64,000 nt of DNA, from IMG/VR virus record IMGVR_UViG_3300021256_000065; one strand, written 5' to 3'. Below, piece after piece: positions 5,558-24,000 of this stretch (position 1 is the stretch's first letter; the number at the start of each line of letters is the position of its first letter). The stretch is from a virus. A model generated the notes under the pieces. It did not search any database. It was given only the letters and a program-made list of their open reading frames with translations, and was not told the DNA's origin. The position numbers and the translations under genes are program-made.

Positions 5558-8500
5558 ATAGTAACCTCCGTGCCCATGAAGGATGGAAATGCGTTCTTTG
5601 CTCTGGAGTCAACCATTAAGAACAATTCAGTAAACAAATAATAAAATAATGTCGATTGAAGTTCCATATATTCTCCAGCTTCTGCGCGGAATTTTGCAAG
5701 TCTATATTCAGCAGTATCTTTAGTATATGTTACTCCATCATAAGTAACAGATGCAGGTAAATTAGCATTTGTTGCTTGAGTTGTGTCAGTACTAACCGCC
5801 CATTCAGCAAAAGAAGCAAGTTGTTCTGTATCAACATATGGGGGATCAGTATCAGGATAACGAGCCTCAAAATCTGATTGCCAAGCTGTACCAGAGAAAT
5901 CTGCGCTTTGCCATAACGCACGACCAGGAGCATTGTTTAAAGTCTCCCAAGACTCATCATCGCCGCTTAAACCAAACACATCTTCTGTAGATTTATCATT
6001 ATTAAAATTATATTTACCTAAGAAAGTAGTTTCTCCTGCTGAAGTATTATTCCAAAAGATTATCATAGGAAATCCTTCAATCCCTTGTCTTACCTTACTA
6101 TTTTCTACCTGCGCGGGAGTCTTGTATGGACAGGCCGCATTATATAAATTAACAAGTTCAACATTGTTTGCGCCTTCTGATGAAGCAAAGTCAGCTTTCA
6201 TACAGAAAGTCTTTACTGGAATACTATTAGCACTCATAGCATATTTAGATTCTTGCGTACCATTCTGCATCCTAAATCCGCCATTAAACTTCATTTTATA
6301 GTTTTTACGAGGATAATACTGTGAAGATGTACCTTGAACATCAATTTGACAATCTTCAAAAGTAAAACTCTTAGAAGGAGACATTGGATTAACAAAAGAA
6401 CCACTACAAGTTTTCTTATCTCCTTTTGATTGAGGAAGCTCTGGACAAGAAATAATCATATATGGCAATTCACTTGGTAAATTTGAAATTACAATATTAC
6501 CATATTCATCAAATACATTATTTCTAACATATCTGTTAAGCATTAATCCACCATCTTGTGTATCAGCAATCCAGTTATTTACAACCTGGAAACGGGTTAA
6601 GTCATTATCATAAATACGAATATTATAAATATCAATAGTACAATCATTAGAACCAATACTAATATTTACTGGTGTCTGTTGTGAAAAGTCATCATCCGCA
6701 GGATACTGAACAGCACCAGAAACAATACCATTAATATAAATTAAAAGCATACGATGTTCAGTTCTTTTTTCACACACAAAAGCAATCCTTACATGTTCAT
6801 CTTCTTTATATTGAGTACCTATTTCTGACTGCTCAGATTTAAGATATGCTTTTTGCGCGGTGACTGAAAATCCTCTGTTTCCGCTCATACAAGACAACAC
6901 AACAGAATCATAATCAAGTACATTTTTAGTAGCAAACTAAAACTCGATAGTCTTACCAGTTGTTCTAAAGTCTTGAGCAAATGGCTTATATGGAACAGTT
7001 ACTCGCGCATCGCCAGATACACGAAGTACAGTAACACCATCCGCATCTTTTTGCCATCCATCAGATGAGAAATTAAAGTCCGTAAGTGTCGCAGATATAT
7101 TATTATACGACCAAGTTTCAGGATGTTCCTCTTGATTACTCCTTCCTTGTGAAGTTAGATGAAGTACAAGATTCTCTGTTTCAGCTTCGACATCTATTTG
7201 AGATTCTATAATATTCAAAGTTATTGTTTTAGATTTTGTTCTTGATCCAGTTCCACCTTCAATACGAATTGTTAATGTGCCTGCATTATTAGCTCGATAT
7301 GAATAAACCTGCTCTGTTCTATCGACTGTCTGAGTTGATACAAGAGTATTATTTATATATATCTTAGCTTCTGTTGTAAGCGCAGTCGGATCGTATATTG
7401 TAAATGGGATTGGAATTGTTGCATATTGATTTTCACTTGTTTTATCAAAAGAGCTTATAATAATAATATTTTCATTTCCTTCTTCAAGGCAAATAAATTC
7501 ATAATATAATTCATTTGATCTTACCAGTTCTCCATTAACTTCTGCATCAAAATATACTCTTAAACTATGCGAACCATGACTTTGTGCAGGGATAGAATAA
7601 GAAACCTGTCTACCAGAAACAGTTGTTGATTGAGTTGGTAAAACAGTTCCATCCAATATAAAATGAACTGTTTTAGTAACTGCACCAACAGGTGTATAAT
7701 TAAATTGTATTAATCCAGTAAAAGGTGCGGTTGTCACAAAAGAACTGCTAATTGTTAATGCCACAACAGTAACACTATAATTAATAGATCTCATTTGCCC
7801 ATATATATCTGAAACTTGAACTTTTACAGTATTAGATCCATTTGATAAATATTCAGAAACATCAACAGTAACATTTCCTTGAGAAATTTCTCTCGAAGTT
7901 TTAAAAACATTATTTACTAAAATTCTTAAATTACCATTACCAGTTGCAAGATCATCTTCAATAGAAGTCCAGTTAAAACTGATCTAACAAGGTGCTCCTG
8001 CGGAAATTGTTTTAGATAGCCAACCTGAGGTATTTGTAACGGTAAGGACTGCAGAGGTTTCACTACCTCCTCCTCCACCGCCACCTCCGCCAGAAAATGG
8101 GCCCAGCGGACCTACAACAATTTCACCATCAGATACCATATACAAAAATCCATCTTCTACATACGCGTCATCAATCTTACTTGTTAAAGAAACGCCTAAA
8201 TTATTTAATGAATTTTGTAATTCTTGAATTTCTGCGTTACTTGACTATATAGCATCACCTGTTGCTTTTGCATCTGCGGCCGCCCCTGATATATTTAAGG
8301 ACGGATCTATGATTACTAAATCTCCGCTAATTGGATTTATATTAGTATCTAACCAATCTGTAACCTCATCAGCAATTAAATTAGCAACATAATATCTTAA
8401 CTGTTCTATATCAATTTTCTCTGTAAAAAGAGTATCTAACTGATCCTGAACAGAACCTTTCGTATTTATATCAATTTCGCCAAGGACATCTACTAATGTA

Positions 8501-8604
8501 TTTTTCTTATTCCATTTTACATACTTAGATAAAATACTTATTGGAATCTATTTAGAATAAGTTCCATCTTTATATTTTATCTTTATGGTTGATAAAGTTT
8601 CCAT
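5554..8604 (-). CDS. Large tail protein (fibre or baseplate-associated), ~1016 codons, read through 4 in-frame TAG codons.
   Basis: ATG at 8602-8604. In-frame TAG at 8548-8550, two further TAGs in the N-terminal ~300 codons, and TAG at 6937-6939. Terminates with TGA at 5554-5556. Fragments 6937..7794 and 5554..6900 share this frame. Contains a poly-Gly linker (GPLGPFSGGGGGGGGGS). The N-terminal ~110 aa are paralogous to gene 1..1745. Confidence 0.5.
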
Positions 8605-8621
8605 AAAAATATTGTCCTTTC

Positions 8622-8936
8622 TTAAAAATTACTTAGTTTGTTAAAAACTTTATTTGTTATATAAACAATCTCTTCTCCATAAGTGGAGATTATATCTGCT
8701 ATAATTTCCTACTGTTCAACAGTAAGAGATACATTATACGAAAACATTGCAGCGTGCGTGATTTCATGACATAACACCTTTTTTAAAAGGTCACCGGTCA
8801 GCGTCTCATTTATATATATAGTTCTTGTCAAGTTATCACACGCACCTATAGAATATTCCCCAGACAACCTTCTAAGAAGAGGGAAGTCTGGGGAAACAAA
8901 CGCAAGTTTCCAATAGACGTTGTTAATAAGAAACAT
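8622..8936 (-). CDS. Small HExxH zinc-metallopeptidase-like protein (IrrE/ImmA-like motif).
   Basis: ATG at 8934-8936 overlaps the TAA of the upstream gene. Contains motif CHEITHAAM. TAG at 8709-8711 is followed by 28 more sense codons to TAA at 8622-8624. Ending at the TAG instead cannot be excluded. Confidence 0.35.
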
Positions 8937-9526
8937 TAGCCTATCTTACTTGCTAACGTTGTCATCTTTTGATGCAACGTAGCTCTTTCTTCGGGAGACG
9001 CATCCTTAATCATTTCAGTAATATCTGTAGAAAGTTCTTGAAGGTATGCTTCTAATTCATGAAGCTGTGAATTAGGATCATTGTGCATCTCCTTACCTTC
9101 CATATACATGCGGCGACGCATTGGACTTCTGCCCTCGCGGGGGTCCCGTCTCATGACGTTAGGCATCTAGGTATAGTAGCTCATGCCACCACGGTTACCG
9201 CCTTCACCACCCATTCCACGATCATTTCCGTTGGTGGGATAATACATGTAACCGCCTGTCCGCTCCACATCCCTGTAATCAGGATACATTTTATTATAAT
9301 ATGGAGTGGTATAATAATTTATATTTGTTTCACCTTGATATTGCCCCTCGCTACCTTTTTCCATAGCATCAGTAATAGTGCAATAATAAATAGCTTCCGC
9401 CAAATCTTTTATCATATCAACTGCTTCGCCCAATTCATGAGCATCTGCTTTTGAAAGATCTCCAAGTTGACCTTGAACACAACTTACAAGTTGTTCCTTC
9501 ATCATTTTTAGTGTTTCTGTTGCCAT
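8936..9526 (-). CDS. Hypothetical structural-module protein. Gly/Tyr-rich with two HExxE-containing helices (weakly CotF/ferritin-like). 1 in-frame TAG.
   Basis: ATG at 9524-9526 follows TAAGGAGGATAAAG. TAG at 9167-9169 is immediately followed by ATG in the same frame. Ends with TAA at 8936-8938. Confidence 0.4.
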
Positions 9527-9539
9527 ATCTTTATCCTCC

Positions 9540-10001
9540 TTATGCTACTCTTGTTACTGTTAATGAAGCTTCACGTCTTACTAGAATAGATGGAGTAGGT
9601 GTCGTAGCTGGATCATCTTCCGTTCCATCCACATATGCACCAGATACAGTTACACAGCATCCGCAAGGAACCGTGATAGAAGCTGAAGTATTTATATGCC
9701 AGTAATCTTCTACTGCGGCTGGAGTTACGATAGCAACACTCTAAGGAATAGTTACTCCATTAAGAGTAATTCCTAATGCTATTGGAGTAACCGCACCACC
9801 TGTAGGAATTTGAATATTTCCCTGAAGTTTAACTTCATATCTTGCAAAACGATTAGAAGTGTTGCCATTTAAGTTAAGAACCCCAGGAACAAGGGGAACA
9901 ACGTTCCCCTTATTACATGGAATAGAAACACTATTAAAAGGAATTGTACCATTTAATGCGACTAAATTGTCAGCAGTCGTTACATAACTAGCCATAAGCA
10001 A
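9540..10001 (-). CDS. Hypothetical virion protein, 1 in-frame TAG.
   Basis: M at 9999-10001. TAG at 9741-9743. The frame continues (SVAIVTPAAVEDYWHINTSAS...TRVA) to TAA at 9540-9542. Sequence is Gly/Val/Thr-rich and beta-rich. Confidence 0.4.
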
Positions 10002-10010
10002 CCTCCCTTA

Positions 10011-10793
10011 TTAATTATAGAATCCATTCCCATTGCATCCACAATTATTCCAATTACCGCAATTGCATCCATAAGGATTTGCAACTACATACGCGGGAAT
10101 TGGTGCAGGATTTAATGCTCTAAGTAATGCAGTTGTTTGAGCCGCATTGTCATTTAAAATCTGACCAGTCTGAGCATTCTGGGAAGCCGCAAGACTTGCA
10201 AGATAACCTTGCATCTGAAGCTGTTGATTCTGTGTCTTAAGAGCATCAATCTCTTGCTGACAAAGCTTATCAAGAATAGCCTGTGTATTTGCTGTATTAG
10301 AAGCAATTACATCACGAAGCGCATCTGTCACAGCAGAGCGATCAGCGCATGCTTCAGTAGCTACTGTATATTTAAGATCAGCCAGTCCTGCGCGATTTTC
10401 ACAGCAACAGTTCTGCTGATTCATAGCAATAGTATTAAGTTGTGTAGAAAGATTTGCTTGATTATTATTTAAGGTTTGAAGTACGTTTGCTTGCGCGTTA
10501 CAACGAGATACTTCTGCATTGGAGAAACCAGTATTGATAGCACTAGCAATACCACTTAAACCACCAATAACTGCACTTTGATCAAATCCTCTTTGAATAT
10601 CAGCAGTCATATAACCAGCTCCACCGCCGCCATATCCACCGTATCCATTTCCCCATCCTCCTGCGAGAATAAGGATAAATAAAAGAAGAATCCAACCGCC
10701 ATCGTTTCCACCAAAACCAAAACCACCATTATTATTATTGCCAGTAGCAGCCGCAATGTCTGCTAAAGAATAACCATTATTGTTGTTAAACAT
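10011..10793 (-). CDS. Gly-rich membrane-anchored protein with a Q-rich coiled coil and a Cys-rich C-terminus.
   Basis: The likely start is the internal ATG at 10791-10793 behind AAGAGGAGATTAAAA. Stop is TAA at 10011-10013. Hydrophobic segment GGWILLLFILILAGGW. C-terminus CNCGNWNNCGCNGNG. No TAG. Confidence 0.45.
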   Translation of the reverse strand: MFNNNNGYSLADIAAATGNNNNGGFGFGGNDGGWILLLFILILAGGWGNGYGGYGGGGAGYMTADIQRGFDQSAVIGGLSGIASAINTGFSNAEVSRCNAQANVLQTLNNNQANLSTQLNTIAMNQQNCCCENRAGLADLKYTVATEACADRSAVTDALRDVIASNTANTQAILDKLCQQEIDALKTQNQQLQMQGYLASLAASQNAQTGQILNDNAAQTTALLRALNPAPIPAYVVANPYGCNCGNWNNCGCNGNGFYN

Positions 10794-11104
10794 TTTTAAT
10801 CTCCTCTTACTTTCCAAATAAGCCATCAAAAAGTTGTTACACAATGATTAATGAAATTGATTTTTAAAATTTGCAAACTCTTTATCAAAGTCTAATCCCC
10901 TTTGGGCAGCGAGGTTTCGTGCCAATGCCTATAGTCCTGGTGCATTTCCATTCTAAGCTAAATTCATTGCATTATTTAAAATAGGATTACTTTGACTTTT
11001 CTGTTGAAGGATATTCATTACTAATTGTTGTGGGTTCTGCCCGCCCTTAATTAATTGTATTAATTGCATTGGATTCACATTCATATCATATTTTCTCCCC
11101 TTTA

Positions 11105-11581
11105 TCAAAAATTAGTTACAACAGCCTTTTTCTCTTCCGCTTGTGGCGGCGCCTGAGGCTGCATAGATGCCATTAACGCTTGTATTACTTTGTTAAATTC
11201 ATCTTTTGTAACATACTAATTTGAATAAGGACTTTCATCTTCTGTGAAAACATATGTTTTAAAAGTGGCAGTCCCATCATTGTTAATTTGTTTAGTATAG
11301 ATTTTCCCATTGCCAACATCAGTAAAAACCCACAGGGAACCATCTAAATCAATTTGATATGCTCTAGCTTCATCTTTTGATGAAACTGGTCTACATTTTA
11401 AAAATTGATTAGATAACAAATTTTGAGAACCATTCATTCTTCCCATATAATTATCATATGGGGTATTACTCAATAACATGTTATTGTTCCCATAGGGAAA
11501 CTGGATTGGAGTTTGCTGCTGTTGGCTCATTACATTAGGCATTTGTTGTATACCTAAATTTTGATTATTGTAATTTGCCAT
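11105..11581 (-). CDS. Hypothetical Q/N-rich protein, 1 in-frame TAG.
   Basis: ATG at 11579-11581. TAG at 11216-11218. The frame continues to TGA at 11105-11107. Confidence 0.4.
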
Positions 11582-11715
11582 CGATCTCCTCCTTGCGCGC
11601 TTAAAAAATTTTAATAAGTACTCTTTCGCGAAAACATAGGAACATAATATTTCCTACATTTATATATTAAAATTCATCTTAACAGATTATCTAGTTTTGA
11701 CCTATATTTTTTCAT

Positions 11716-11744
11716 TTGACAATTATAAAAATTTTTAGTATAAT
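11716..11744 (+). promoter_or_regulatory. Consensus sigma-A promoter for the RuvC-like gene.
   Basis: TTGACA 11716-11721, 17-nt spacer, TATAAT 11739-11744. RBS and ATG ~30 nt downstream. Confidence 0.6.
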
Positions 11745-11772
11745 TACCCCAAGAGAAAGGAGATTGGTATAA

Positions 11773-12264
11773 ATGAAAATACTATCATTAGATTTATCTA
11801 CTAAATCATCTGGTTGGTGCATAGGATAGGATGGAAAATTTGAAAAATCTGGATGCGTTGCGGCGGCCTCTAAAAATGTAAATGCACGAATTATTAAAAT
11901 TCGTGATGAAATATCTAAAATAATTAAAGAAAATAATATAGATAAAATTGTTATGTAGTAGGTGCGGCCTGAGTACAATTCTCATACTAATAAAGTATTA
12001 ATGTGGTTACAGGCTGCGATTGTTCTCGCCGCTTATGAAATTAATCCAAAAATTTAGTGTGAATTTATTGGAGCTACAGAATGGCGGGCCGCATTAAAAA
12101 TAAAACAGGGACGCGGCATAAAGAGAGAAATGCTCAAACCGCAAGATATAAAATACGTAGAAGATAAATACTCAATTAAAGTCCAAAATGATGACTAGGC
12201 TGATGCAATTTGTATATTTGACGCCTATTGGGAAAAGAATGATAATGAAATTAATTGGGAATAA
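11773..12264 (+). CDS. ruvC: RuvC-like Holliday junction resolvase with 5 in-frame TAG codons.
   Basis: N-terminus MKILSLDLSTKSSGW resembles the RuvC ILGIDPG box. C-terminal DD-TAG-ADAICIF resembles the RuvC DAADALAIA box. Tandem TAG-TAG sits in IVM**VRPEY, aligning with the catalytic IEQ region of E. coli RuvC. Preceded by a consensus TTGACA-17-TATAAT promoter and a GAAAGGAGA RBS. TAA at 12262-12264. Confidence 0.6.
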
Positions 12265-12265
12265 A

Positions 12266-12302
12266 AAAAATGGGTAATGATTATTAATCATTACCCATTT
12301 AT
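12266..12302. terminator. Bidirectional intrinsic terminator between convergent genes.
   Basis: AATGGGTAATGAT…ATCATTACCCATT, a perfect 12-13 bp stem, flanked by A-run and T-run. Confidence 0.6.
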
Positions 12303-12306
12303 TATT

Positions 12307-12720
12307 TTATTCTTTATTACATAAAATAGATTGTAATTGCATTATTTCTCTTGGTGTGAGGATATCATATTTATCATCACTGTAATCAAATATAGAAATA
12401 TCATCTAGTGTAGATAATTTAATTTCTACTTCTATATTTAATAATTCATTAATTTCTGCAATATAATCACTCATATGTTCATCATCAACTTGGGGGATTC
12501 CTGTTGCAGTATAAATATATTCACCTTTGTCATTTTTAATAATAAAATCTTTGTAAGTTTCAATAATTTTATTCAACATTTTGGTATAACAATCTACATC
12601 ACCTTGAATATTTAATGCATTTTTAACAATTAAATATGAGATTTTTTGTGGTAATTTTTTTGTAGAATATTTATTTAATATTTGCATCATGCTAAGTAAT
12701 TCTATATTTTTAATTTTCAT
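12307..12720 (-). CDS. Hypothetical protein.
   Basis: ATG at 12718-12720 after AGAGGA. TAA at 12307-12309. No TAG. Ends at a bidirectional terminator. Confidence 0.4.
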   Translation of the reverse strand: MKIKNIELLSMMQILNKYSTKKLPQKISYLIVKNALNIQGDVDCYTKMLNKIIETYKDFIIKNDKGEYIYTATGIPQVDDEHMSDYIAEINELLNIEVEIKLSTLDDISIFDYSDDKYDILTPREIMQLQSILCNKE

Positions 12721-15700
12721 ATACAATATCCTCTAATTCTTTTATTCTTTTTTGTTGTTTTTGTAATACTGCAATAATAGGAGCAATAAATTGATCATAT
12801 GACAAACCCCATGATAATAAATTATCATCAACCTATTCACCAAAATAAGGTTCAACTTCTTCATCAGGATCATTACTTTTATAACTTGCAGCTACTACTG
12901 ATAAATTTTGATTTAAATTTTTACACACTTTTGCAACATCTTGTGCAATAAATCCCATACGAGTTCTTCGATGATCTCCCTTTTTCCACATAAAAGAAAT
13001 TGGCTATAAAGACATTATAAAATCTTCTGCAAAATCAATCTATCCTAAAATATCTTTTAATTTTCTATCTGAGGATGTATCTACATTTAAACAAAAAACA
13101 TTATTAAATCTATAACCGTCCTGAGTATCTCTTCCTAAATCTACTACTGCTGTATCATGTGTAGGGACTAATCGTGGACTTTGTCCAGATATTCTAATTT
13201 TAGTTTTTTGTGTATTAAATTCTATATGACCAGAGTATTTATCAGGTTTGTTCATTACTCCAGTACTTAATCTTACATCTCCATATGCATCCTATATTTC
13301 AATATCATGTTCCGTTTGATCGTCATTATATCCAACATATAAATTTAATCCTAAATAACTAGTTAGCTGAGTAGCGCCACCAGATCCTTTTAAATTTAAA
13401 CTACTCTTTGGTGTATATAATTGAATATTACCTGTTGAAGGACGTCCTGGCGAATCAGAACCAACCATTACATCCAAATTACCATTTACCCATATCGTTG
13501 AAGACTGATCGCAAAACATCCCCCATTTATGGCTAGAAAAACTCCAAGGAGTTGAATTAGAATAATCAAGTGTGGGAGGCACATATCCAAGATAAATTCC
13601 TTGTGTGCTACTTGACGTAGAGGTTTGATCATTTCTTATTCCTATGTAAGATCCATGATTTGTAATTGCATAAAATGAATTTTTATATAAATCTGGTGTA
13701 CTAGAAACATACAATTTATCAGGTCTTATTTCAACTAAAGAGCCATATGTTAATCCTCCATATGATTGAGGTGGAGTCGTAGTTAAATCTGGATTTGGAT
13801 TATAATCTTCAAAACTAAAACCACCTATATGACCAGTGCCATCTGCATTAAGAGAAAAAGCATTATTACTTGACTTTATTCCATTATTTAATAAATCTAA
13901 TCCACCAATTTTACCTGCAGAAGCATAAATAGTTCCATATATAATTGCATTACTAGCAGTTAATAATCCATTACTAGAAACAACAAAAGTGGTTAATGAA
14001 GAATCTTCTTCCCAATATGTAGTATTTGGCGGCTTGTTACTTTGCGCAGAAGTATGCGCTAAAATACATTTATAAATTTTTCCATTGTCACGAACAATAT
14101 CATCTATAGCATATATGGCATCTTCCTACCAAAGCGGCAATGGCCCACCAACCACGCCATTTTCTTTAATGTACCCGCTCAGTTCATTTTGTAAGCCATC
14201 AACTTTTTCAATAGGAATAGTTGCATTATTTCCCAAATTTAAAGTAGTTGCAGTAATAACACCAGATATATTTGCTTCTTCGGCATGTAATATTCCTTGT
14301 GAATTAACTGAGAACTTACCATTTCCAAATCTGATTTCAGGAGCAGTTAAATTAATTAATAATCCAGCTCCAGCCTATCCTGATGATGTATAATCAATAG
14401 GTAATCCATCCTATCCATAATTAGTAGATTCCCAAAAATTATGACTATAAATCATAGCTTTTTGTGCGATTGGATCTATAATAATTTGACCATTATCTGC
14501 TTTACCAAAAATAGCAGAGCCATTCTAACTATTTAAAAAGAATGTGCGGGCGCCACTATTATACCCAAATAAACCAGACTATGGCTCGCTTTTATCTGGA
14601 GACCGTACCTATCCCATAAGCACGCCAGTAAAACTATTATCATTTTCTTTCCGTCCTGCGCCGACCTGTGGACTAAGAATAAAACCGCCTTCATCATCAA
14701 TTTGAACACTATTGCCATCCCATTCATTTATATGAGATAAGCCATATTTATTTAATAAAAAATGAATAGGAACATTTATTTTACCAATTATTACATTATT
14801 CTGTTTATATATACAACAAACTGCATTATTAACACATAATCCATTATATTTTGATTTTGGACGAATTATACATTGATTTTTTTCATATCCATTATTTGGA
14901 AGAATCTCTAATAAAAGAGAATTAATTGCCGCTCCATCTTTAGATAAATAATTTCCAATAACAGATGGTTCATAAGAAATTGCATGGATACCAGAAACCA
15001 GTGAAATATCTTCCCAAGTGTTATCAATAGATTCTTCACAAATAAATTCAAAAGGACTGGCATCGTCATACTGCGGTGAAATACCATCTGAAGTATATAT
15101 TACATACCTAAATCCAGTATAATCTTTTAATTTTACTCTATATTTTTCATCACTAGTCCAAGCTGTTACTATAGGAATTGTACCATAATAAGTTTTGCTT
15201 TCCCAATCAATACTACATTTAATAATATTTGCTAAAGGTGTATTTAAATTAGAATCTAAATGATCTCCAGTATATTTAATTTGCCCATTATTTGCATTTA
15301 CTATTTCAAAAGCAGATGCATCAGAGTATGTATTATTATATTTATTTTTTAACACACTCCAAATGACACTTGAAGGCTGGGTTAAATTGTCTTGAGCAGT
15401 ATCTGTCATAGAATTACCTTCCCATACCAATTCTCCACTATGCCATAATTGTGCCTTAAAAAATTTATAACTATTATTAATAAGAAGTTCAGTTTCTGCG
15501 GCGGAAGTTCCTAATCCATAGTTTAAAATATACTTATTTCCAGCTTTAGTAATCATTGGAGCCAATGGAGGAACGCTCATTGTTGTATTTGGAACTAATT
15601 TTACTATATATTCAGTTCCATTTGTACCAGGCTCTCCCTGCTTAGCAAAAGTAAAGTTGGTTTCCGCAGATAAACTTAACCCTTTATATCTTACTGTTAA

Positions 15701-17755
15701 TTTTATTTGATTTTTTTGTTTTTGAATATAATATCTTTGTGAAATATTATAAAACAAAGTTGGTTTATCATCATAATATCTATAATTTTCATCTTCATCA
15801 AAGTCTAATCCATTTTCCTATGAATCGACTAACATAGTATTTGTTTTAGGAAATTCCCATTTAATTCTGCAATTATTTATATTTTCCAAAATATCTTCCT
15901 AAATAGGCTGACCTAAATTGTCATATATTGCAAAACTAAGCGGCAAAATTTCTTGCGGCGAGTCCAGACTCTTACTATTTGGAGCAACGCCATTTTCATT
16001 ATATTGAAAAACTTGTGTACCATTATTAATAACAAGAGAATAAAGATCTTCTCCACTTAAAGTATTTTCTAAAGTTATTGATGGAGTACCTAATAAAATA
16101 CCATTCTCATTAACGACAGTACATTTAAAGGTTCTACTATCTGTAATATCATTGATTTGTACATTATAGATTTTATTGCCTTCTACTCTTTGAATAGAAT
16201 TAAAAGCTTTAACATTATTCTATAATGTAGTTAAATTCTCTTTCTACGCATTTTCAAACTTAGTTCCTGAAGCAATCGCATCCTAAAGATTCGTTAATGC
16301 AGTAACCGCTGCAGTATATGCAGTATTTTCTGATGTAGTTTCTGGCAATTCTTCAAGCACCTAATTGTCAGATACATACGCCCAATAGTAATGATAGTTC
16401 TGAGGCTATGTTCCATTAACCTTACAAGTTAAAGTTGGATGTCCAATGTCATAATAAAATTTTGTACCATTACTTGATTCTATTGTCAACTATGGTGTTT
16501 CTGCACATAAATTCTTAATATTAACCTATTTAGATGCGGTGTTTCCATTATAAACAACTACAACTTTAATTTTATTGTCACTTACGGTTGCCGCGGTGAA
16601 ACTCATTTTATATATATTCCCCGCAGGTACCCATTCTATAATAGCATTAGGATCATTAGGAACAGTAGGATCGGCATCAATAATATTACTTTGATTTAAA
16701 CACTACCAACCTCTCCCTAAATGTTTATTATAATATCTATTATTAGCCATGACTTGATTATTTTCTCTTCCCCAATAGAAAGAGAAATTTTTATCAATCG
16801 CTACTTCTTTTCCTTTAATTCTAACTTTTGCGGTAATTGTTTTATAATCAGCTGTTGTAGAATCATCTTTAAAAATAAGCCCTTCTGGGACAGAAAGAGA
16901 AATAGAAAGTCCATTTAATTCAGATTCAGATAATTTTGAAGTTCCAAAAAACTTCAAATTAGTAATTTCTATATCCCCTGTTTCTAATCGTCTATCTGTA
17001 ATAACTCCATTAGCACCAGGGAATTCCTTATTGAAAATCTCTATAGACTCAATACGAATAAAATTCTATCCATCGATTTTAAAATATTGTGATTGTTCTG
17101 TCCCATATGCCAATCTATATGGGTTATCTTTCATGTTATCTTCATTGATTGTATATGAACGAATAACCTCTTGGTTAGAAGTATTATCTAAAAATCTTAA
17201 ATTATAAGTGATACCATAATGACCTCTAGTCTGTCTTTCAGGCGCGATAGAGGTTTTAAAGGTTGCGGCAACCTTAATAGAAGAAGATCGTCTTATATAA
17301 TAAGCTAAGGCCAGATCATCTAATGAAATATCACTAGGTTCTCCATATTGATAAATTGTATATTTATAATCTCTATTTAATGTATTTAAATAAAATTTGT
17401 CAATATCATTAACATTAATGCAATTAGTACCATTAATATCATAAACTGCCTAATTGTCTAACTAACTAATATAACTTACCCCAGACCGCGTAGTTGAACC
17501 TAAGATAGTCTTATCTTTTGACATATCATTGCCTGGAACAAGAATATTAACATAAGAGCCATTAGTATATGTTGTATCTATATTATTAGAATAAGCATAT
17601 ATAATAGCATCTTGATAGCGGCATCTATATTTTCCGATAGACGCGTCCTCACATGAAATAATCTGCGCTTGGATTGTTGTATTATAATTAGCTTTTTCTA
17701 CTTTTGAATTTGCTAATAATTCAATAGCATCCAAAATCGTCTAATTTACATTCAT
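12710..17755 (-). CDS. Tail fibre protein (~1680 codons) with a C-terminal intramolecular chaperone / peptidase S74 auto-processing domain. About 25 in-frame TAG codons.
   Basis: ATG at 17753-17755 after AAGGAGGAAATTATAC. Fragments 17462..17734, 16703..16957, 14609..15757, 13292..13714 and 13040..13255 are all in one frame and all end in TAG. I hand-translated 13715-14608 and 12710-13040 and found only TAG. Stop is TAA at 12710-12712. The C-terminus TSSDRKLKDILG*IDFAEDF...MGFIAQDVAKV...LSYDQFIAPIIAVLQKQQKRIKELEDI matches the endosialidase-type chaperone domain (SDxxLKxNI ... GxIAQE ... coiled-coil tail). Confidence 0.65.
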
Positions 17756-17834
17756 GTATAATTTCCTCCTTATATCTCTAATATAAAAATAAATTTATAT
17801 TATATTAATAGTATAACATATTTTTTTCATTTTT

Positions 17835-18011
17835 TCAACTCTACTATTTCAATATTCTTCTTTTTTCTTCCTAAATACTTTTATAATTATATCTTGTAAT
17901 TTCAAAAAAATCTTTTTCGGTTATTTCTTTTGACTATACCAATTTTGATAATTCTTCTAATCCATATACACCTGTATCCCATTTATATTGTAATATTGTT
18001 AAATTTTCCAT
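17835..18011 (-). CDS. XkdX-like small phage protein.
   Basis: MENLTILQYKWDTGVYGLEELSKLV*SKEITEKDFFEITRYNY fits the XkdX pattern (LVxxGxITxExYxEIT). Contains TAGs including a TAG-TAG pair near the end. TGA at 17835-17837. Confidence 0.4.
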
Positions 18012-18034
18012 ATTTTGCCTTTCTTAATATAATA

Positions 18035-18058
18035 TAAAGAGGGAATAACCCCTCTTTA
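18035..18058 (-). terminator. Intrinsic terminator after the tape measure gene.
   Basis: AGAGGG-AATAA-CCCTCT hairpin with a T-rich tail on the minus strand. Confidence 0.4.
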
Positions 18059-18060
18059 TA

Positions 18061-21000
18061 TTAATTTCTTAATGCTCTTTGAATTGCCATATTCGCAAGT
18101 TCATAGAATGCATCTTCAATTTCTTTTCTAGTATTAACATTTGGAAATACTGCTTCAATATTCACAGTTTGTTCAATACTTTCACCATTAGTATTATCAA
18201 ATAAATTACTAAAACCGCCTTTGATATTATTTGCTCTTGAGTATAAAGAACCTTCTAATGAAGTCTTTAATTCCTCTAAGATAATAGCCATAGTGCTAAC
18301 TCGCTCATTTAATCTATTTATTCGTTCATCACTTGATAATGAATCCATTGTAGCATCTTCAAAGATTTGCATCATTCCAGATAATTGTGAACCATACACT
18401 GTACTATCGGCTTGATCTAATCCATTAAGAACCTGATCTTTTGCGGCATCCCAAGTACCAAGTCCAATAGATTTATCATCTATTTTATTAAAATCATTTG
18501 TATCATTTGCGGATTTCAGATTTGTTTGCTGAAGGAGATCATGTATAGTACCACTTGTAATCATTGCATTTTTAGTAACTTCTTTATAAGCTTCTGCAAG
18601 AGAATGAATATAATCTCTTAAACTAGCAACTTTTGTCATTTCTTTATCCATGTTTGTCATAAGAGCATCATTAGCAGTAATTAATTTACTAGTCTATTCA
18701 GCTAAAGCACTAACACCTTCTTTTGTTTTTTCAAAATCAGTTCCCGCGCTTTCCGCAGTTTCTTTTACATCATTTTTATATTCTTTAGATGCTTCACCAA
18801 CTTTTTCAAAAGCCTACTGACAAGTTGGAACAAAACCGCCCTCTTTAGTCATAGCATCCATCATTGCCTGAATACCACTATCCCAAGTAGGAACTAAATC
18901 TTTCATTATTAAGTCTTTTTCTTCAATGGATAAATTCTTATAATGTTTTGCATCTTCATTATTAAGTAACGCATAATCTTGTAATGCTGAATCAGTTAAA
19001 TTACCTCTAATAACTTCATTCTAAGCAAGTTTACCATTAATATATTCTGCATACTGCTGTTGTAATAATGCAGCCTATCTAGCTTGATCTTCCTAACTCT
19101 TTGACATATCAGACATAATTGCTTTATACTAAGATTGAAAATCTTTCCAAGCCTGTAATGCATCAGATAAATTAGAATTATATCTTTCTTTATCAAAGTT
19201 ATATAAATCATTATTAAGCTAAGCTAATCTTCGCTGAGTCTATAAAATATCATCATCATCCGCAATATATTCATATGAATAGTTGCCTTGAGAATCTCTC
19301 TTTAATCTCATAGTAGTTTTTGCAGCTTGTGCATCTTCTAATGCAATTCTGGCTTGTTCTAATTCCAACAGCTTCTGAGCACGCTCGACATCATACTCAG
19401 TTAACTTATCTTTATTTTCAAGATTAGTTAATTGTTCATCCATCAATCGTTTTAATGCCTGTTGATTTTTTAAATCTTTAGTATCATTAATAGCCTTATT
19501 AAACTATCCTCTTAAATCTTGAAGCGCAAAAGCAGCATTAATAGTATCATAATACTCGTCTGCATTTTTATTCAACAGATCCCATTCTTTTTCAACAAAA
19601 TCAGAGCCTTTTCCGTCACTAATTCTTCTATCTAACTCATCAAAGATTTTATTAATAGAATTAATGTATTTATCTTGAATAGTTTGAATAGATTGTCCAA
19701 TCATACTATTTAAATTGCCAATAGTCTAACGATAATGTTGTTCAAACTTTTCTGCGGCATTGGTATCTCCTGCGTCAACGGCGGCCTGCCATCTTTCTTT
19801 CCACCACGCCGCCTGTTGCCTTAAGAAATCTATTTGCTTATTAGAATTTTCATTAAGCTAAGTATAATATTTATCCATCGCCTCATAGTTTTGATCACCA
19901 TATAACAATGATAATAAATCCATATCATGAGTTAACAACTATTCTACAAAACCATAATTCTACATTTGTTTATTAAATTGATTATCAATTTCATCAATAG
20001 TTGAAAGATATGCCTAATCAACTTCATCAATAGAAGATAACATCCCTTCTAACTGATCTTGTAATGATGCTAAATCAGTTTTTAAATTTTCTAAGGCTTT
20101 TTCTTTATCCTTACCATAAATGTCAGAACTTTCACCTCTATTAATTTTTTCAATTTCCGCTTGAGTTTTGATTAATTGATTTGTTATTGTTTCAATCGAG
20201 CCTGCTGTATCACCGTTACCAAAATATGAGAAGAAATCTTTACTACTCTTTGCGGCGTCCGCAAATATTTTATCAAAGTTGCTATCTTTAACAACATCAG
20301 CTTTATCTATTACATTACGATAAAAATCATTCCAATCTCTTTGAGCTGCGCTCATATCAAGATGAACATCAATTGTTGTTCTAAATCTCTAAACATTTTT
20401 TTCAATTCTTTCTTGCTCTGCTTCATTAATATCATCTTTTGAGTCTTCAATCGCTTCTCTTAACTCGTCATAATCTTTTATTTTATCTTTTAAATTCTAT
20501 AGACTATCACTAGCTTTATTAATTTGCTTATCAAGTTTCTATAATCTTTCTTTTAATTTATCTTTTTTATTTTTATTTGTTTCTTTATTATATTCTTTAA
20601 CTAATTTATTATATTTATCAGTTTTCTTATTAACCTAATCTTGCTGTTTACCAACTATTTTCATATAATTGGTAATATTACCATAAGCATCAAAAGTTAC
20701 TCCAAGCCCTTTTAATGCTTTTTGCTGAGAAGCTAAATCTTTCTCTTGAAGTTTTAATTTTTCCTCAAGTTTTTTCTTCTGCTCTTCTAACAGTTTTGAT
20801 TGCTATCTTAAATTATCTAAAAGATCTTTACCATATAAATGGTCTTGCTTCTTTTGTGCGCGGTCAAGGTTTCGATTGATTTTTTCAATTTGGATATTTA
20901 TATCATGATAAATATCTCTTTCATCTTCAATCTTCTTTTTCTTATCTTTTTTTCCTTTATCAGGTTTTGCAGTAGATCCTTTACTGCCGCCTTTGCCACC

Positions 21001-24000
21001 TTTACCGCCTCTTCCGCCGCTGCCACCAGAACCAGCACGACGAGCAGAGCCTGCAGAGCCGCCACCATTTGAAGCTTGTTTAAACTTAAAACCGCCGCCA
21101 GAAGATTTATGAGCAGATGTCACTTTTAAAGAAAAAGCAGAATTTTCTTTTGTATCAGTAGTTGTAGTTGTTCTTGGAATATATTCACTATCATAAACAG
21201 TATACTAAATAGGAGCTGTACGAACTTCCATATCCTAACCGCGACCAGAAATAATAGGAACCTAACCTACTCTTGTCTAAGGAATAAGTTCACTATCAAA
21301 TCCAGTGATAGTTTTATTCTAAGTTCCCTGATTTTTTTGCTCAACAACCTCAGCATCAATACCCATAGAAGCCAAATAATCAGTTGCTTGCTCGGCAGTC
21401 ATATGGGCAGCATTTACTAAATCTCCTAATTCTTGTAAAAAATTATCTTGATTTAAATCTGCGCCAATTTCAAGGGTTTGAAAGTTCATAAGATCTAATG
21501 AGTTTTGAACAGTATCTAATGATGACATAAAGTCTTCATACATACCTTCATCCCATTTAATGTGACCAATGATATCCTGCTGCGCGGCAATCATTAATCT
21601 ATCATATGCCTAAGTATCACCATCAATGGCGGCTTTCATATCATTTAAATTATCTGTATTAGATAAAAAGTCTTCTGATAAAGAGCCTCCATCTAAATCA
21701 AGTAAATCAGCATAAGCCTCTCTCATTTCTGACATTGCTTGTACTTGATCTTGGATAGAACCACTTTCTAATGCTTTTGTCCAATTCTTATAACTTTTTA
21801 CAACATTTTGACAAGCATCATCAAATCTTAATATTTCTTCAGAAAGTTTTTCAGCACCTTTTCTATCTGTCTATAAACCATTATGTAATTCTTCTGTTTC
21901 ATCAGCAACGTCTTGAATATGATCTGCCAAATTTTCCCACTAATCAGTATCAACATCTGCATCTAATTTTGTTTCGCTGATTTGCTATTGTAAGGCTAAT
22001 CTTTCTTTTCCTTTTTCTATAAGCTAAGTCTAAATTTGATTTAATTCTTCATCAGCTTCTATCTACGCTTTTTTAGCAGATGCAGCATCTGATTCAGCTT
22101 GCATTACTTCGCCTTGACTAAATTGTCCTTCATTTTCAACTTTAAAATTTGCTTTTGCATAATCCTATTGACTTTGTTTTTTAATCTCTTCTAATTCAGT
22201 TTTTCTATTCTATAACTATTGAATATGTTTTTCATTCTCCGCCAACAATAGTTCTTTTGTTACTTCTAATTCAGACTATTTTGCAGCAATTATTTGATTA
22301 AGAACGTCAAGGTATTCTTTTGAATTTACTCCATTCTAAGCTGCTTCATTTAAAATAGAATATTCTTTCCCAACTGTAAATAAAGCAGACATTTGTTCAT
22401 CGCTTAGCTCTCCACCTTTAGCTAAAGTATCTCTTGCAGATGTTAGTGTAGAAACTTCTTTTTTATCAGTTTGAAAATTATCAAAAGAAGAACTAGTTGA
22501 TGAAGCTCTTTCAACCTATTTTTTAAAATCTTCTGCATTAAAAGTACCATTTTTTAATGCTTCAGAAATTTTATTAATATTATCAATAATCCATTGATAA
22601 TCTGTGTCCACTCCAAGAGAAGCGAATAACTCATTTAAAGTTTGTAAATGTCCTAATGCCTAAGAATCTTTAACAGCGGCTTGCGCATTTTTATAATCTT
22701 TTAATTTATCCTTTGCACTATCTACTGCTTTTTCTAATTTACCAAGATTTTCACTTTCTTTATATAAATTTAAAGCAGCCTATTTAGTCTAATTGGAATT
22801 AAAAGCTAAATTATTTGCTTTTGCAAACTATTCTAATTTATCTTCTGTTAAATTAAGTTGCTTTACTTCCTATCCAAAAATATCATTCCATAAAGCTTGA
22901 TATTCAGCTGGACTAATTTTAGATTTTAACTACTATAATTTTTCAAAACTAGTAGCAAGGATTGATAACCCTTCTGCTCTTTGCATAGAATCAGAAGTTG
23001 TTAAAACTGCGTCTTCAAAATCTTTTAATAATTGTTCAGTATCTTGAAGTTTAGAAGGATCGACCTAACCCTCATATAAATTAGATAATAAATTAGTTTT
23101 TTCTTTATATGATAAATCTTTTCCAGATTGAACTTTTTGAATAGCGGAAGAAACTTTATCAAAATTTTTAATAATATTATTAACATTATTATCTTGAGCG
23201 TCTTGAGCAAGAAAATTTTGAATCCATTGTTTCGCTTCTTCAAGAGTTTTAAACTATGGTTTAAATTTATTAATTTGCTAATTTATTTTATTTAATTGTT
23301 CTTCAGAAAAATTCTAAGTTAACCAATTTTGTAAAAAATTTTTAGCATGAGTATCTGTATATCCAGAAATACCTTCTTCAATAGAATCATTTAAAGTTGA
23401 AGCAATTTCTTTTCCCAAAGAAGTTCCTGCAGTAAAGACTTTAAAAACTTCTCGAACTCCATCTTTAAATACAAAATTTAAATTATCTAATCCATAAATA
23501 GATTTAATTAAATTAATTATCATATCTTTTTGCTCTGGATTATTTAACATCTATTGAATCTATGGATTATTAAGCCAAATATTATTTATAGACTATATAA
23601 TTGCATCTGAAATCTGTTTGACACTTTGATCATTATTAGCAAAAATTTCTTCAATATCTTTAATACTTTCATTTTCAGCACTTTTTATTATCTAACCGCT
23701 TTGGACTAAATTATCATAAATCAATTTAATTTTATCTACCATTGATTGATAAACCTAATCCACAGGGATGTCATCGGTTGAGCTAGTAATAGTATCTATT
23801 AATAACATTAATAAATCTTTTTGATTCCAACCAACTTTAATAAATTCTTCTTGTAAATTATCATATAATTCTCTATTTACATCATCAATGCTAAAAGCTC
23901 TTAAAAGCGCATCGGCATCTTCTTCAGTGTAATAAGTTTTTTCTTCTTGCTTTTTTGTTGCATCATCTAAAGCTTGTTTCTTCTCATCAACTGCTGCTTG

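What the first reader, a model, noticed from the sequence alone, without database searches (positions are those of the whole stretch)
12710..17755. Tail fibre with self-cleaving intramolecular chaperone domain whose conserved motifs are interrupted by TAG
The C-terminal ~130 residues (…TSSDRKLKDILG-TAG-IDFAEDFIMSL-TAG-PISFMWKKGDHRRTRMGFIAQDVAKV…FGE-TAG-VDDNLLSWGLSYDQFIAPIIAVLQKQQKRIKELEDIVYEN) match the peptidase-S74 / endosialidase chaperone domain. Its autocleavage site is the Ser in SDxxLK. Three TAG codons lie inside this conserved domain. This is strong internal evidence that TAG is translated. It also gives a convenient place to infer the decoded residue by alignment.
Basis: partly seen in the sequence, partly recalled or inferred. 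Interest (0 to 1): 0.5.

Follow-up and report, generated by a model that had tools for sequence, protein, structure and literature searches.

The report
Phage tail fibre; TAG read as glutamate
A phage tail-fibre gene with a self-cleaving folding domain really is interrupted by 24 TAG "stop" codons that must be translated, and comparison with about 250 related phage segments indicates this lineage reads TAG as glutamate, not as glutamine as is assumed for all such phages.

Summary
Window 12710-17755 (minus strand) is one 1681-codon frame with no TAA or TGA and 24 TAG. It lies just downstream of a 3118-codon tape-measure gene with 85 TAG. The last 120 residues are a genuine Peptidase_S74 intramolecular chaperone domain: Pfam gives 37.5 bits against a cut-off of 22, the invariant S-D-x-K-x-K motif is present, and a homologue model matches PDB 3GUD, 3GW6 and 4UW8. 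Three TAGs lie inside the domain, so TAG is translated. They sit in variable columns, so the domain cannot identify the amino acid (Pfam scores: E 43.4, Q 43.4, K 43.7). A codon-level comparison with 249 related loci can. TAG's substitution profile equals that of Glu. At 102 independent sites the majority partner is Glu at 58 and Gln at 6, and Glu beats Gln by 123 nats. Of 39 site entries with a strongly conserved partner, 37 are Glu and none Gln. In a 98%-identical relative, TAG encodes the catalytic Glu of the GH73 endolysin. A sister lineage shows TAG opposite Gln and other relatives show TGA opposite Trp, which serve as internal controls. The relative carries a tRNA(CUA) about 11 kb beyond the window. 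The fibre finding itself is ordinary, but amber-to-Glu decoding appears undescribed. It needs proteomic confirmation.

The parts
12710..17755 (-). Tail-fibre / tail-tip gene: 1681 codons plus a TAA stop, with 24 in-frame TAG at codons 5, 98, 102, 230, 351, 410, 422, 450, 465, 491, 504, 512, 619, 646, 1049, 1059, 1077, 1115, 1127, 1210, 1488, 1572, 1584 and 1641
   Evidence: All 24 TAGs are conserved in the 98%-identical relative. It is the first large gene downstream of the tape-measure gene. A TAG-free homologue exists in L007.
12713..13072 (-). C-terminal intramolecular chaperone domain (Peptidase_S74), residues 1562-1681. It is predicted to be released by autocleavage before Ser1562.
   Evidence: Pfam PF13884 at 37.5 bits. 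PHROG tail-fibre profiles match 1538-1676. Alignment with 151 diverse homologues. Fold of the 55%-identical homologue P0002 matches 3GUD, 3GW6, 7DC3 and 4UW8.
13055..13072 (-). Catalytic motif S-D-R-K-L-K: Ser1562 (13070-13072), Asp1563, Lys1565, Lys1567 (13055-13057)
   Evidence: Ser, Asp and both Lys are invariant in 143-146 aligned homologues. Sequence read.
13040..13042 (-). TAG codon 1572, inside the S74 domain
   Evidence: The family column is D 51, S 23, E 18, N 16, Q 1.
13004..13006 (-). TAG codon 1584, inside the S74 domain (L-TAG-P)
   Evidence: The family column is K 57, E 27, N 26, R 13, Q 11.
12833..12835 (-). TAG codon 1641, inside the chaperone domain (FGE-TAG-VDD) but beyond the Pfam core
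   Evidence: The family column is D 54, E 40, N 15, K 12, Q 2. This TAG is conserved in L002, L004 and L005.
14012..14131 (-). CBM_5_12 carbohydrate-binding module, residues 1209-1248, with TAG at codon 1210
   Evidence: Pfam PF02839 at 29.6 bits against a cut-off of 26.2, and 36.9-37.5 bits on the isolated segment.
18061..27417 (-). Context: tape-measure protein gene, 3118 codons with 85 in-frame TAG
   Evidence: I read the TP901-type core motif by eye, with no profile test. TAG codons 223 and 261 lie opposite Glu in 14 of 19 and 14 of 15 relatives.
12307..12720 (-). Context: downstream 137-aa gene whose ATG overlaps the fibre gene's last codons (11-nt overlap). It has no TAG.
   Evidence: matches phrog_1401.

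Best explanation
The gene encodes a large (1681-aa) late structural tail protein. It is a fibre or tail-tip protein encoded directly after the tape measure. It has a conserved N-terminal and central body, a CBM5/12 sugar-binding module and an exchangeable distal part, and it ends in a Peptidase_S74 intramolecular chaperone domain. By analogy with endosialidase and T5 pb1, three chaperone domains would drive trimer folding, and each would then cut itself off before Ser1562 using the Ser1562/Lys1567 dyad (inferred). The gene can only be expressed if UAG is decoded, because the first TAG is at codon 5. In this phage TAG is a sense codon confined to late, structural and lysis genes and absent from the core replication genes. 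Decoding is presumably done by a phage tRNA(CUA), which is seen in the 98%-identical relative about 11 kb beyond the window, inside a tRNA array that also holds a TAG-free sigma-70 gene. The amino acid inserted is most likely glutamate, not glutamine. Shown here: the reading frame, the domain, the motif, the TAG distribution, the tRNA in the relative, and the Glu-like evolutionary behaviour of TAG. Inferred: autocleavage, temporal gating, and how the tRNA is charged. My hypothesis for charging is that a host non-discriminating GluRS glutamylates the tRNA, and that GatCAB does not then amidate it because the tRNA has C1-G72 rather than U1-A72.
For: Frame and TAGs. S74 membership. TAG is restricted to late genes, and no selected ORF needs TAG as its terminator. 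tRNA(CUA) at L249 15233-15306: ARAGORN and Rfam at 64.7 bits. TAG = Glu: (i) The partner profile of TAG across relatives (E .66, Q .067, D .061, K .051) matches sense Glu (E .726, D .061, K .042, Q .035), not sense Gln (Q .678, K .066, E .051). (ii) With one vote per site over 102 unique sites, the majority partner is E at 58 and Q at 6; log-likelihood is E -190.5 against Q -313.3. Using only the window's own 35 sites, E has 16 and Q 3, with -78.8 against -106.8. (iii) Of 39 site entries with a strongly conserved partner (some sites are counted twice through overlapping reference loci), 37 are Glu and none is Gln; they lie in TerL, the portal, a virion protein, the TMP and the DHH/RecJ-like protein. 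(iv) In the relative's endolysin, TAG aligns with AtlA E212 / Auto E122, the strictly conserved catalytic proton donor of GH73. (v) Internal control: a sister lineage at ~52% identity shows TAG opposite Gln (for example 1 E: 15 Q), and other relatives show TGA opposite Trp (275 cases). (vi) With TAG = Glu, the late genes' Glu content (7.48%) equals that of the early genes (7.57%); with TAG = Gln, late-gene Gln would be 6.01% against 3.06%. (vii) The S74 family columns favour E over Q by 18:1, 27:11 and 40:2.
Against: There is no protein-level evidence. The tRNA(CUA), the sigma factor and the GH73 site are in a 98%-identical relative, not in the window, and about 24 kb of that relative was never seen. 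The tRNA body resembles tRNA-Trp, and from my own knowledge the classical E. coli tRNA-Trp amber suppressor is charged with Gln. The only TAG change between the window and the 98% relative is TAG<->CAG. L004 has CAA opposite TAG-1572. E-lineage relatives still show 0-5 Gln per locus opposite their TAGs. For the fibre gene alone the signal is weak: BLOSUM sums are E 31, N 31, D 18, Q 17. No aaRS or release factor was found, so there is no explanation yet for how RF1 is overcome at 85 TAGs in the TMP. The label 'tail fibre' rests on gene position and on the C-terminal module only; the central region has no named homologues.
Confidence: 0.75

Rival explanations
1. Standard 'code 15': the same gene and domain, but TAG is decoded as glutamine, as in crAss-like, Lak and other recoded gut phages.
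For: All published phage amber reassignments are to Gln (Borges et al.; Peters et al.; phAss-1). The one TAG change against the 98% relative is TAG<->CAG. There is CAA opposite TAG-1572 and opposite two L004 TAGs. Gln is enriched 4.3-fold opposite relatives' TAGs. The tRNA body is Trp-like, and from my own knowledge such suppressors take Gln in E. coli.
Against: Glu beats Gln by 123 nats (all sites) and by 28 nats (window sites). None of 39 strongly conserved site entries is Gln. TAG sits at the catalytic Glu of GH73, where I would expect Gln to inactivate the lysin. The same method does recover Gln for a sister lineage, so it is not blind to Gln. Most of the Gln enrichment comes from that sister lineage.
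Confidence: 0.1
2. Ambiguous decoding: the tRNA(CUA) is glutamylated and only partly amidated, or two tRNAs read UAG, so a mixture of Glu and Gln is inserted.
For: E-lineage loci retain 0-5 Gln against 4-32 Glu opposite TAG. Glu-to-Gln conversion on tRNA is the normal route to Gln-tRNA in many bacteria (my own knowledge). A second candidate reader, tRNA(UUA), exists in the array.
Against: The residual Gln fraction (.067) is only about twice that seen for ordinary Glu codons (.035). TAG at a catalytic Glu argues for mostly Glu. TAA is not found in-frame, so the tRNA(UUA) is probably not an efficient reader.
Confidence: 0.1
3. The TAGs are genuine stops: the locus is a decayed pseudogene or a string of small genes, and the S74 match is a relic.
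For: Under code 11 the region breaks into many short ORFs. No tRNA is present in the window.
Against: The chance of a 1681-codon frame free of TAA and TGA is about 10^-49. All 24 TAGs and the frame are conserved in a relative that has about 40 amino-acid changes. Domain hits span the TAGs. A full-length TAG-free homologue exists. The same pattern holds in the TMP, and in TerL, the portal and the lysin of the relative.
Confidence: 0.01
4. The protein is not a lateral tail fibre but the central tail-tip protein (Tal-like) or a tailspike that happens to carry an S74 module.
For: It is the first large gene after the tape measure, where Dit and Tal genes usually sit (gene-order rule from my own knowledge). 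The N-terminal ~1300 residues are conserved with L007, while the C-terminus is swapped. The PHROG 'tail fiber' hits come only from the C-terminal module.
Against: There is no Dit, Tal or gp27-like Pfam or PHROG hit in the N-terminal part. S74 modules are typical of fibres and spikes.
Confidence: 0.3

Closest known systems
C-terminal intramolecular chaperone domains (Peptidase_S74): PDB 3GW6 and 3GUD, which I recall as endosialidase endoNF of phage K1F and the phage GA-1 neck appendage (the tool describes both only as 'intramolecular chaperone'); phage T5 L-shaped tail fibre pb1 (4UW8); and MyRF ICA (7DC3)
   Same: It sits at the extreme C-terminus of a long fibre-like protein. The invariant Ser nucleophile and the Lys five residues downstream are present (S-D-x-K-x-K). 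The Pfam score is above the gathering threshold. The fold of a 55%-identical homologue matches these structures with probability >=0.99.
   Different: Sequence identity to the solved domains is only 13-19%. The coding sequence holds three TAG codons. The upstream part is unrelated to endosialidase and carries a CBM5/12 module. Cleavage has not been shown.
Stop-codon-recoded gut phages using code 15 (TAG to Gln): crAss-like, Lak, Agate and phAss-1
   Same: It is a low-GC phage of ~134 kb. TAG occurs in frame in late, structural and lysis genes but not in replication genes. There is a phage tRNA(CUA). Relatives within the same clade use different codes (Borges et al.).
   Different: In this lineage TAG behaves as Glu, not Gln. 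Borges et al. state that only TAG-to-Gln and TGA-to-Trp reassignments were observed in phages. Proteomic validation exists only for crAss-like phages.
E. coli su+7 (my own knowledge): a tRNA-Trp with a CCA-to-CUA anticodon change that is charged mainly with Gln
   Same: The tRNA(CUA) here has a Trp-like anticodon arm, and its best annotated matches are phage tRNA-Trp genes and other suppressors.
   Different: The evolutionary evidence says Glu is inserted. The tRNA has C1-G72 and A73 and a 3-bp D stem. The host is probably not a GlnRS-containing proteobacterium (weak hints).
Peritrich ciliate nuclear code (NCBI table 30, TAA/TAG to Glu; my own knowledge)
   Same: UAG is read as glutamate.
   Different: That code is eukaryotic, genome-wide and also covers TAA. 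Here only TAG is reassigned, only in late phage genes, in a host that presumably uses the standard code.

Membership tests
Peptidase_S74 / C-terminal intramolecular chaperone domain | Match to PF13884 above the curated gathering score | tested here: met
   37.5 bits against a cut-off of 22 on the full protein; 38.2 bits with X at the TAG positions; 43.4 bits on the isolated segment.
Peptidase_S74 / C-terminal intramolecular chaperone domain | Ser nucleophile and Lys general base five residues downstream, in the S-D-x-x-x-K motif | tested here: met
   Ser1562, Asp1563, Lys1565 and Lys1567 align with columns that are invariant in 143-146 homologues.
Peptidase_S74 / C-terminal intramolecular chaperone domain | Domain at the extreme C-terminus of a long fibre or spike protein | tested here: met
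   The domain covers residues 1562-1681 of 1681. In 150 listed homologues the match ends at or near the C-terminus of proteins of 82-2031 aa.
Peptidase_S74 / C-terminal intramolecular chaperone domain | The chaperone fold seen in 3GW6, 3GUD and 4UW8 | tested here: met
   Tested on the TAG-free homologue P0002 (55% identical), because TAG-containing window sequence is not accepted by the tool. The model has pLDDT 91.1. The top 13 PDB hits are all intramolecular chaperone domains (probability >=0.99, TM 0.50-0.63), and the next hit has probability 0.07.
Peptidase_S74 / C-terminal intramolecular chaperone domain | Trimerisation-dependent autocleavage that releases the domain | not testable with these tools
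   This needs protein expression and mass spectrometry.
Stop-codon-recoded (amber) phage | Reading TAG as sense restores long, homologous ORFs | tested here: met
   Total ORF length rises from 13,314 to 20,007 aa and the longest ORF from 830 to 3118 aa. Domain hits span TAGs.
Stop-codon-recoded (amber) phage | Recoded codon concentrated in late, structural and lysis genes and absent from early replication genes | tested here: met
   TAG is 1.52% of codons in late genes and 0.00% in 22 early genes. The endolysin of the relative has 7 TAGs.
Stop-codon-recoded (amber) phage | Phage-encoded suppressor tRNA with anticodon CUA | tested here: inconclusive
   None is present in the window. One is present in the 98%-identical relative at L249 15233-15306. 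The corresponding part of the window's own genome was not available.
Genetic code 15 (TAG = Gln) | TAG aligns with Gln in homologues | tested here: not met
   The majority partner is Glu at 58 of 102 sites and Gln at 6. None of 39 strongly conserved site entries is Gln. TAG lies at a catalytic Glu. A sister lineage does meet this criterion.
Tail fibre | Encoded in the tail module and carrying receptor-binding or fibre modules | tested here: inconclusive
   It lies directly downstream of the tape-measure gene. It has a CBM5/12 module and an S74 module. The PHROG tail-fibre hits come from the C-terminal module only. The central region has only unnamed homologues.

The most novel reading that the evidence does not exclude
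This lineage of ~134-kb gut or rumen phages uses a genetic code not described for phages, in which UAG means glutamate. The code is switched on for late genes by a phage tRNA(CUA). Sister lineages of the same clade use UAG = Gln or UGA = Trp, so one clade would hold three different stop-codon reassignments. Current gene callers, which translate phage TAG as Q, would then mistranslate every late protein of this lineage, including catalytic residues.
Probability: 0.72. Interest if true: 0.85.

Novelty: new variant of a known kind. Interest (0 to 1): 0.72.

Why it matters
Amber recoding of late phage genes is well known, and an S74 gene broken up by recoded stops has even been used as a textbook-style example, so the fibre finding itself is ordinary. 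What matters is which amino acid is inserted. The field, and the gene-calling pipelines behind public proteins such as P0001, assume TAG = Gln for all such phages. If this lineage inserts Glu, four things follow. (1) Public protein sets for it carry systematic E-to-Q errors, including at active sites such as the GH73 catalytic Glu. (2) Suppressor charging in phages is not limited to hijacking GlnRS or TrpRS. (3) The result suggests a testable link between the host's route to Gln-tRNA (a direct GlnRS, or GluRS followed by GatCAB) and the code a phage can adopt. (4) Closely related lineages with UAG = Glu, UAG = Gln and UGA = Trp would form a natural system for studying how genetic codes change.

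Tried and rejected
(1) A DNA search of the 16-kb structural block against 50,697 phage records found nothing. phmmer of the C-terminus against PDB sequences gave only weak hits.
The Pfam score does not separate E, Q and K, and the closest homologues give mixed residues (Q/E/T, T/N/R, S/N), so this route was rejected as uninformative.
(3) The fibre gene against its TAG-free homologue L007 gave a mix of polar partners and is not decisive alone.
(4) Public protein P0001 seemed to show Gln at TAG-1641, but the DNA has TAG there, so the Q is a code-15 gene-calling assumption.
(5) I searched for a suppressor tRNA in the window and in about 240 related loci. All were negative until the last walking step into the relative. 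ARAGORN was validated with a positive control.
(6) The left-end ORF 3-1745 has no relatives and no family hit.
(7) The first AlphaFold run, on a 4-sequence alignment, was unusable (pLDDT 49.5) and was replaced by a 48-sequence alignment.
(8) I tried to identify the tRNA(CUA) isotype by similarity. There is no match in E. coli genomes, and the phage matches are tRNA-Trp genes or other suppressors, so the charged amino acid cannot be read from the tRNA body.
(9) Pfam scans for an aaRS, release factor or amidotransferase in 10 window ORFs and 9 ORFs of the relative found none.
(10) Host inference from the sigma-factor gene gave scattered hits, mostly in Bacillota MAGs, which is only a weak hint.
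(11) The metagenome scan with the conserved central motif gave a single locus.

Full report
**1. The observation**

The finding's coordinates are exact, but the gene is on the minus strand. From ATG (17755-17753) to TAA (12712-12710) there is one frame of 1681 codons with no TAA, no TGA and 24 TAG. With the gene's base composition (A .36, T .33, G .18, C .13), 6.45% of random codons would be TAA or TGA. The probability of 1681 codons free of both is therefore about 10^-49. The other two frames of the same strand contain 72 and 205 such codons.

The three TAGs are codons 1572 (13040-13042), 1584 (13004-13006) and 1641 (12833-12835).

**2. The chaperone domain**

Pfam Peptidase_S74 (PF13884) matches residues 1562-1614, covering profile positions 1-56 of 58, at 37.5 bits (cut-off 22). 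The match spans two TAGs, and with X at the TAGs the score is 38.2 bits. The code-11 fragment between the second and third TAG alone scores 24.2 bits. Neither the fragment ending at TAG-1572 nor the 40 residues after the last TAG gives an S74 hit. PHROG tail-fibre families 5481 and 1980 match residues 1538-1676 and span all three TAGs.

An exhaustive HMMER search with the TAG-free homologue P0002 found 1,256 relatives. The domain is almost always at the very C-terminus of proteins of up to ~2000 aa. In an alignment of 151 of them, Ser1562, Asp1563, Lys1565 and Lys1567 are invariant. This is the S-D-x-K-x-K motif holding the Ser/Lys(+5) dyad; the dyad assignment is from my knowledge of endosialidase.

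A first AlphaFold model was unusable (pLDDT 49.5). With 48 sequences, the P0002 model reached pLDDT 91.1. Its 13 best PDB matches are all intramolecular chaperone domains: 3GUD, 3GW6, MyRF ICA 7DC3 and T5 pb1 4UW8. Probabilities are >=0.99, and the next hit drops to 0.07. Membership of the family is therefore well supported. Cleavage itself is inferred.

**3. The rest of the protein and its neighbourhood**

The only other Pfam hit is a CBM5/12 module at residues 1209-1248.

The upstream neighbour (18061-27417) is a 3118-codon frame with 85 TAG. By eye it shows a TP901-type tape-measure core and long coiled coils. The gene in question is therefore the first large gene after the tape measure.

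L007 (a metagenome contig) encodes a TAG-free 1665-aa homologue that aligns over ~1300 residues at 40% identity but has a different C-terminus without S74. The distal end is therefore modular.

The central region has only unnamed, mostly fragmentary homologues. 'Tail fibre' is thus reasonable but rests on position and the C-terminal module. A central tail-tip role cannot be excluded.

**4. What kind of genome**

Minus-strand genes from 1 to 27,976 are structural and carry TAG. Plus-strand genes from 28,139 onward are a replication and nucleotide-metabolism module: topoisomerase II, NAD-dependent ligase, DnaB, Dda, RNase H, RNA ligase, PNK and Thg1. These are almost free of TAG. TAG is 1.52% of codons in ten late genes and 0.00% in 22 early genes. 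No selected ORF needs TAG as its terminator.

An exact-match probe found IMGVR_UViG_3300021399_000007 (133,873 bp), which is 98% identical over window 8253-23599. All 24 TAGs of the fibre gene are conserved there despite about 40 amino-acid changes.

Other probes revealed a large clade of ~100-145 kb contigs.

**5. How TAG is decoded: the tRNA**

The window has no tRNA by ARAGORN or Rfam. About 240 related loci were also negative, and ARAGORN was validated with a positive control.

Walking along the 98% relative eventually reached a tRNA array at contig ~86-92 kb, about 11 kb beyond the window's left end (14 tRNAs by Rfam, 13 by ARAGORN). It includes a tRNA with anticodon CUA (L249 15233-15306; Rfam 64.7 bits; anticodon loop C-U-CUA-A-A; C1-G72; A73; 3-bp D stem). 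A TAG-free sigma-70 gene lies inside the array.

The most similar annotated phage tRNAs are tRNA-Trp genes and other suppressors. There is no match in E. coli genomes.

Pfam scans of 19 ORFs found no aaRS or release factor. About 24 kb of the relative remains unseen.

**6. Which amino acid**

The S74 domain cannot tell. Its three TAG columns are variable, and the Pfam score is 43.4, 43.4 and 43.7 bits for E, Q and K.

I therefore ran tblastn with all TAG-readthrough ORFs of the window and of the relative (TAG = X) against 249 loci (3.9 Mb), read the actual codons opposite each TAG, and kept only well-aligned contexts. The results were:

- **Profile.** The TAG partner profile is E .66, Q .067, D .061, K .051. 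Sense Glu gives E .726, D .061, K .042, Q .035. Sense Gln gives Q .678, K .066, E .051.
- **One vote per site.** After removing duplicate references, 102 sites give a majority partner of E at 58 and Q at 6. The log-likelihood under empirical substitution profiles is -190.5 for E and -313.3 for Q. The window's own 35 sites give E 16 and Q 3, with -78.8 against -106.8.
- **Conserved columns.** There are 39 site entries with at least 8 partners and at least 80% agreement (overlapping reference loci count some sites twice). Of these, 37 are Glu and none is Gln. Examples are TerL 55/55, 63/64 and 40/40, a virion protein 53/53, TMP codon 261 at 14/15, and the DHH/RecJ-like protein codon 244 at 31/37.
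- **Partner codons.** GAA 839, GAG 238, CAA 93, CAG 24.
- **Lineage split.** Relatives at >=63% identity have TAG opposite Glu (for example 32:4, 31:2, 28:3). A sister lineage at ~52% identity has TAG opposite Gln (1:15, 5:17, 2:13), and other relatives have in-frame TGA opposite Trp (275 cases). The method can therefore see Gln when it is there.

**7. Function-based evidence**

The relative's endolysin (Amidase_2 plus GH73 glucosaminidase, 7 TAGs) reads AAQCCL-TAG-NGYG. In phmmer alignments to 7QFU (AtlA) and 3FI7 (Auto), the TAG aligns with the Glu of AQAIV-E-SGWG and AQAAL-E-SNWG. That Glu lies 34 residues before the W-E-Y glutamate, so it is AtlA E212 (= Auto E122). The literature describes E212 as strictly conserved in GH73, essential, and the catalytic proton donor.

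Composition agrees. With TAG = Glu, late-gene Glu content (7.48%) equals that of the early genes (7.57%). With TAG = Gln, late-gene Gln would be 6.01% against 3.06%.

Within the S74 family, the three TAG columns hold E:Q at 18:1, 27:11 and 40:2.

**8. Evidence on the other side**

- The single TAG change between the window and the 98% relative is TAG<->CAG.
- L004 has CAA opposite TAG-1572, and two of its own TAGs lie opposite window CAA.
- E-lineage loci retain a few Gln opposite TAG.
- For the fibre gene alone, E ties with N (31) ahead of D (18) and Q (17).
- The tRNA body is Trp-like, and such suppressors take Gln in E. coli (my own knowledge).

None of this outweighs sections 6 and 7, but partial ambiguity cannot be excluded, and no protein data exist.

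**9. Mechanism proposed (inference)**

Early and middle genes, the sigma factor and the tRNA array are TAG-free and can be expressed with host machinery. Once the tRNA(CUA) accumulates, late genes become translatable: TMP, fibre, TerL, portal and lysin. The fibre's first TAG is at codon 5 and the TMP's at codon 27, so no product is possible earlier.

For charging, I propose that a host non-discriminating GluRS glutamylates the tRNA. It normally accepts tRNA-Gln with anticodon CUG or UUG, one base away from CUA. GatCAB, which requires U1-A72 (my own knowledge), would ignore this tRNA because it has C1-G72.

The lysin type, NrdD and the sigma-factor relatives hint at an anaerobic Bacillota host, and such bacteria typically lack GlnRS (my own knowledge). 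How RF1 is overcome at 85 TAGs is unknown.

**10. Comparison with what is known, and novelty**

Recoded late genes, suppressor tRNAs and mixed codes within a clade are all described (Borges et al.). A fragmented Peptidase_S74 gene has even been used as an illustration of recoding. The original finding is thus a new member of a known kind.

Borges et al., however, state that only TAG-to-Gln and TGA-to-Trp were observed in phages. phAss-1 and others are annotated with table 15. Proteomic validation covers only crAss-like phages. Six full-text searches found no report of amber-to-Glu in phages (related reading). The library is incomplete, so prior description cannot be excluded.

The public protein P0001 shows Q where its DNA has TAG, which illustrates the practical consequence.

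**Verdict**

The interesting result is the likely UAG = Glu code.

Noticed in passing
Related loci L203, L224, L229, L197, L200, L239 (TGA) and L206, L214, L216, L217, L219-L223 (TAG opposite Gln): Within one clade of ~100-145 kb phage contigs, three different recodings appear. The window's lineage has TAG opposite Glu, a sister lineage at ~52% identity has TAG opposite Gln, and other relatives have in-frame TGA opposite Trp (275 cases).
   Followed up: partly
L249 13868-13940 (minus strand), in the 98%-identical relative: The array holds a tRNA with anticodon UUA, which would read UAA. Rfam scores it 51.3 bits, but it is 33% GC with a weak acceptor stem. TAA is the main terminator here and is essentially never found in frame, so its role is unexplained.
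   Followed up: partly
L249 17203-18144 (minus strand): A TAG-free sigma-70 family gene with regions 1.2, 2, 3 and 4 sits inside the tRNA array that holds the tRNA(CUA). It is a candidate late-transcription switch that would be co-expressed with the code switch.
   Followed up: partly
window 2231-8604 (minus strand): ORFs 5554-8604 and 2231-5557 match consecutive parts of one long PHROG (14959). What looks by eye like a CotH-like domain appears split across an ATGA stop/start overlap. The whole ~6-kb cassette is replaced by an unrelated ~2.8-kb segment in the 98%-identical relative, which suggests a swapped receptor-binding module.
   Followed up: partly
window 18061-27417 (minus strand): The tape-measure protein is 3118 aa long with 85 TAG codons (2.7% of codons). 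Full-length synthesis requires near-complete suppression at every site, yet no release-factor countermeasure was found.
   Followed up: no
window 11773-12264 (plus strand): A conserved plus-strand gene is embedded in the minus-strand structural block. It has 5 TAGs, including a tandem TAG-TAG at codons 62-63, and both of those lie opposite Glu in 22-29 relatives.
   Followed up: partly
window 37784-38326 and 38403-38675 (plus strand): These two early genes have their only TAG four codons and zero codons before the TAA. TAG may still act as the terminator for early genes, with TAA as a backstop once suppression starts.
   Followed up: no
window 28139-37554 (plus strand): A dense RNA-repair set is present: a Thg1-like tRNA-His guanylyltransferase (29886-30713), an RNA ligase (35395-36666), a polynucleotide kinase (37060-37554) and several phosphoesterases. 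This fits a phage that depends on its own tRNAs.
   Followed up: no
window 30765-33254, 57309-58106 and 33896-34318 (plus strand): Three unusual early genes stand out: an 830-aa protein with a major-vault-protein shoulder domain (81 bits), a microbial-type poly(ADP-ribose) glycohydrolase, and a pyrimidine-dimer DNA glycosylase.
   Followed up: no
L005 (ENA contig encoding public protein P0001): The database protein reads FGEQVDD, but the DNA has TAG at that position. Public gene calls for this lineage have been made with code 15, and if TAG = Glu they carry systematic E-to-Q errors.
   Followed up: yes
L250 (JAZDGF010000001.1, 142,870 bp, labelled Candidatus Levyibacteriota MAG): The best genome-collection match to the phage sigma factor (51% identity) is a contig of phage-like size binned into a CPR bacterial MAG. 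It may be a mis-binned relative of this phage clade.
   Followed up: no
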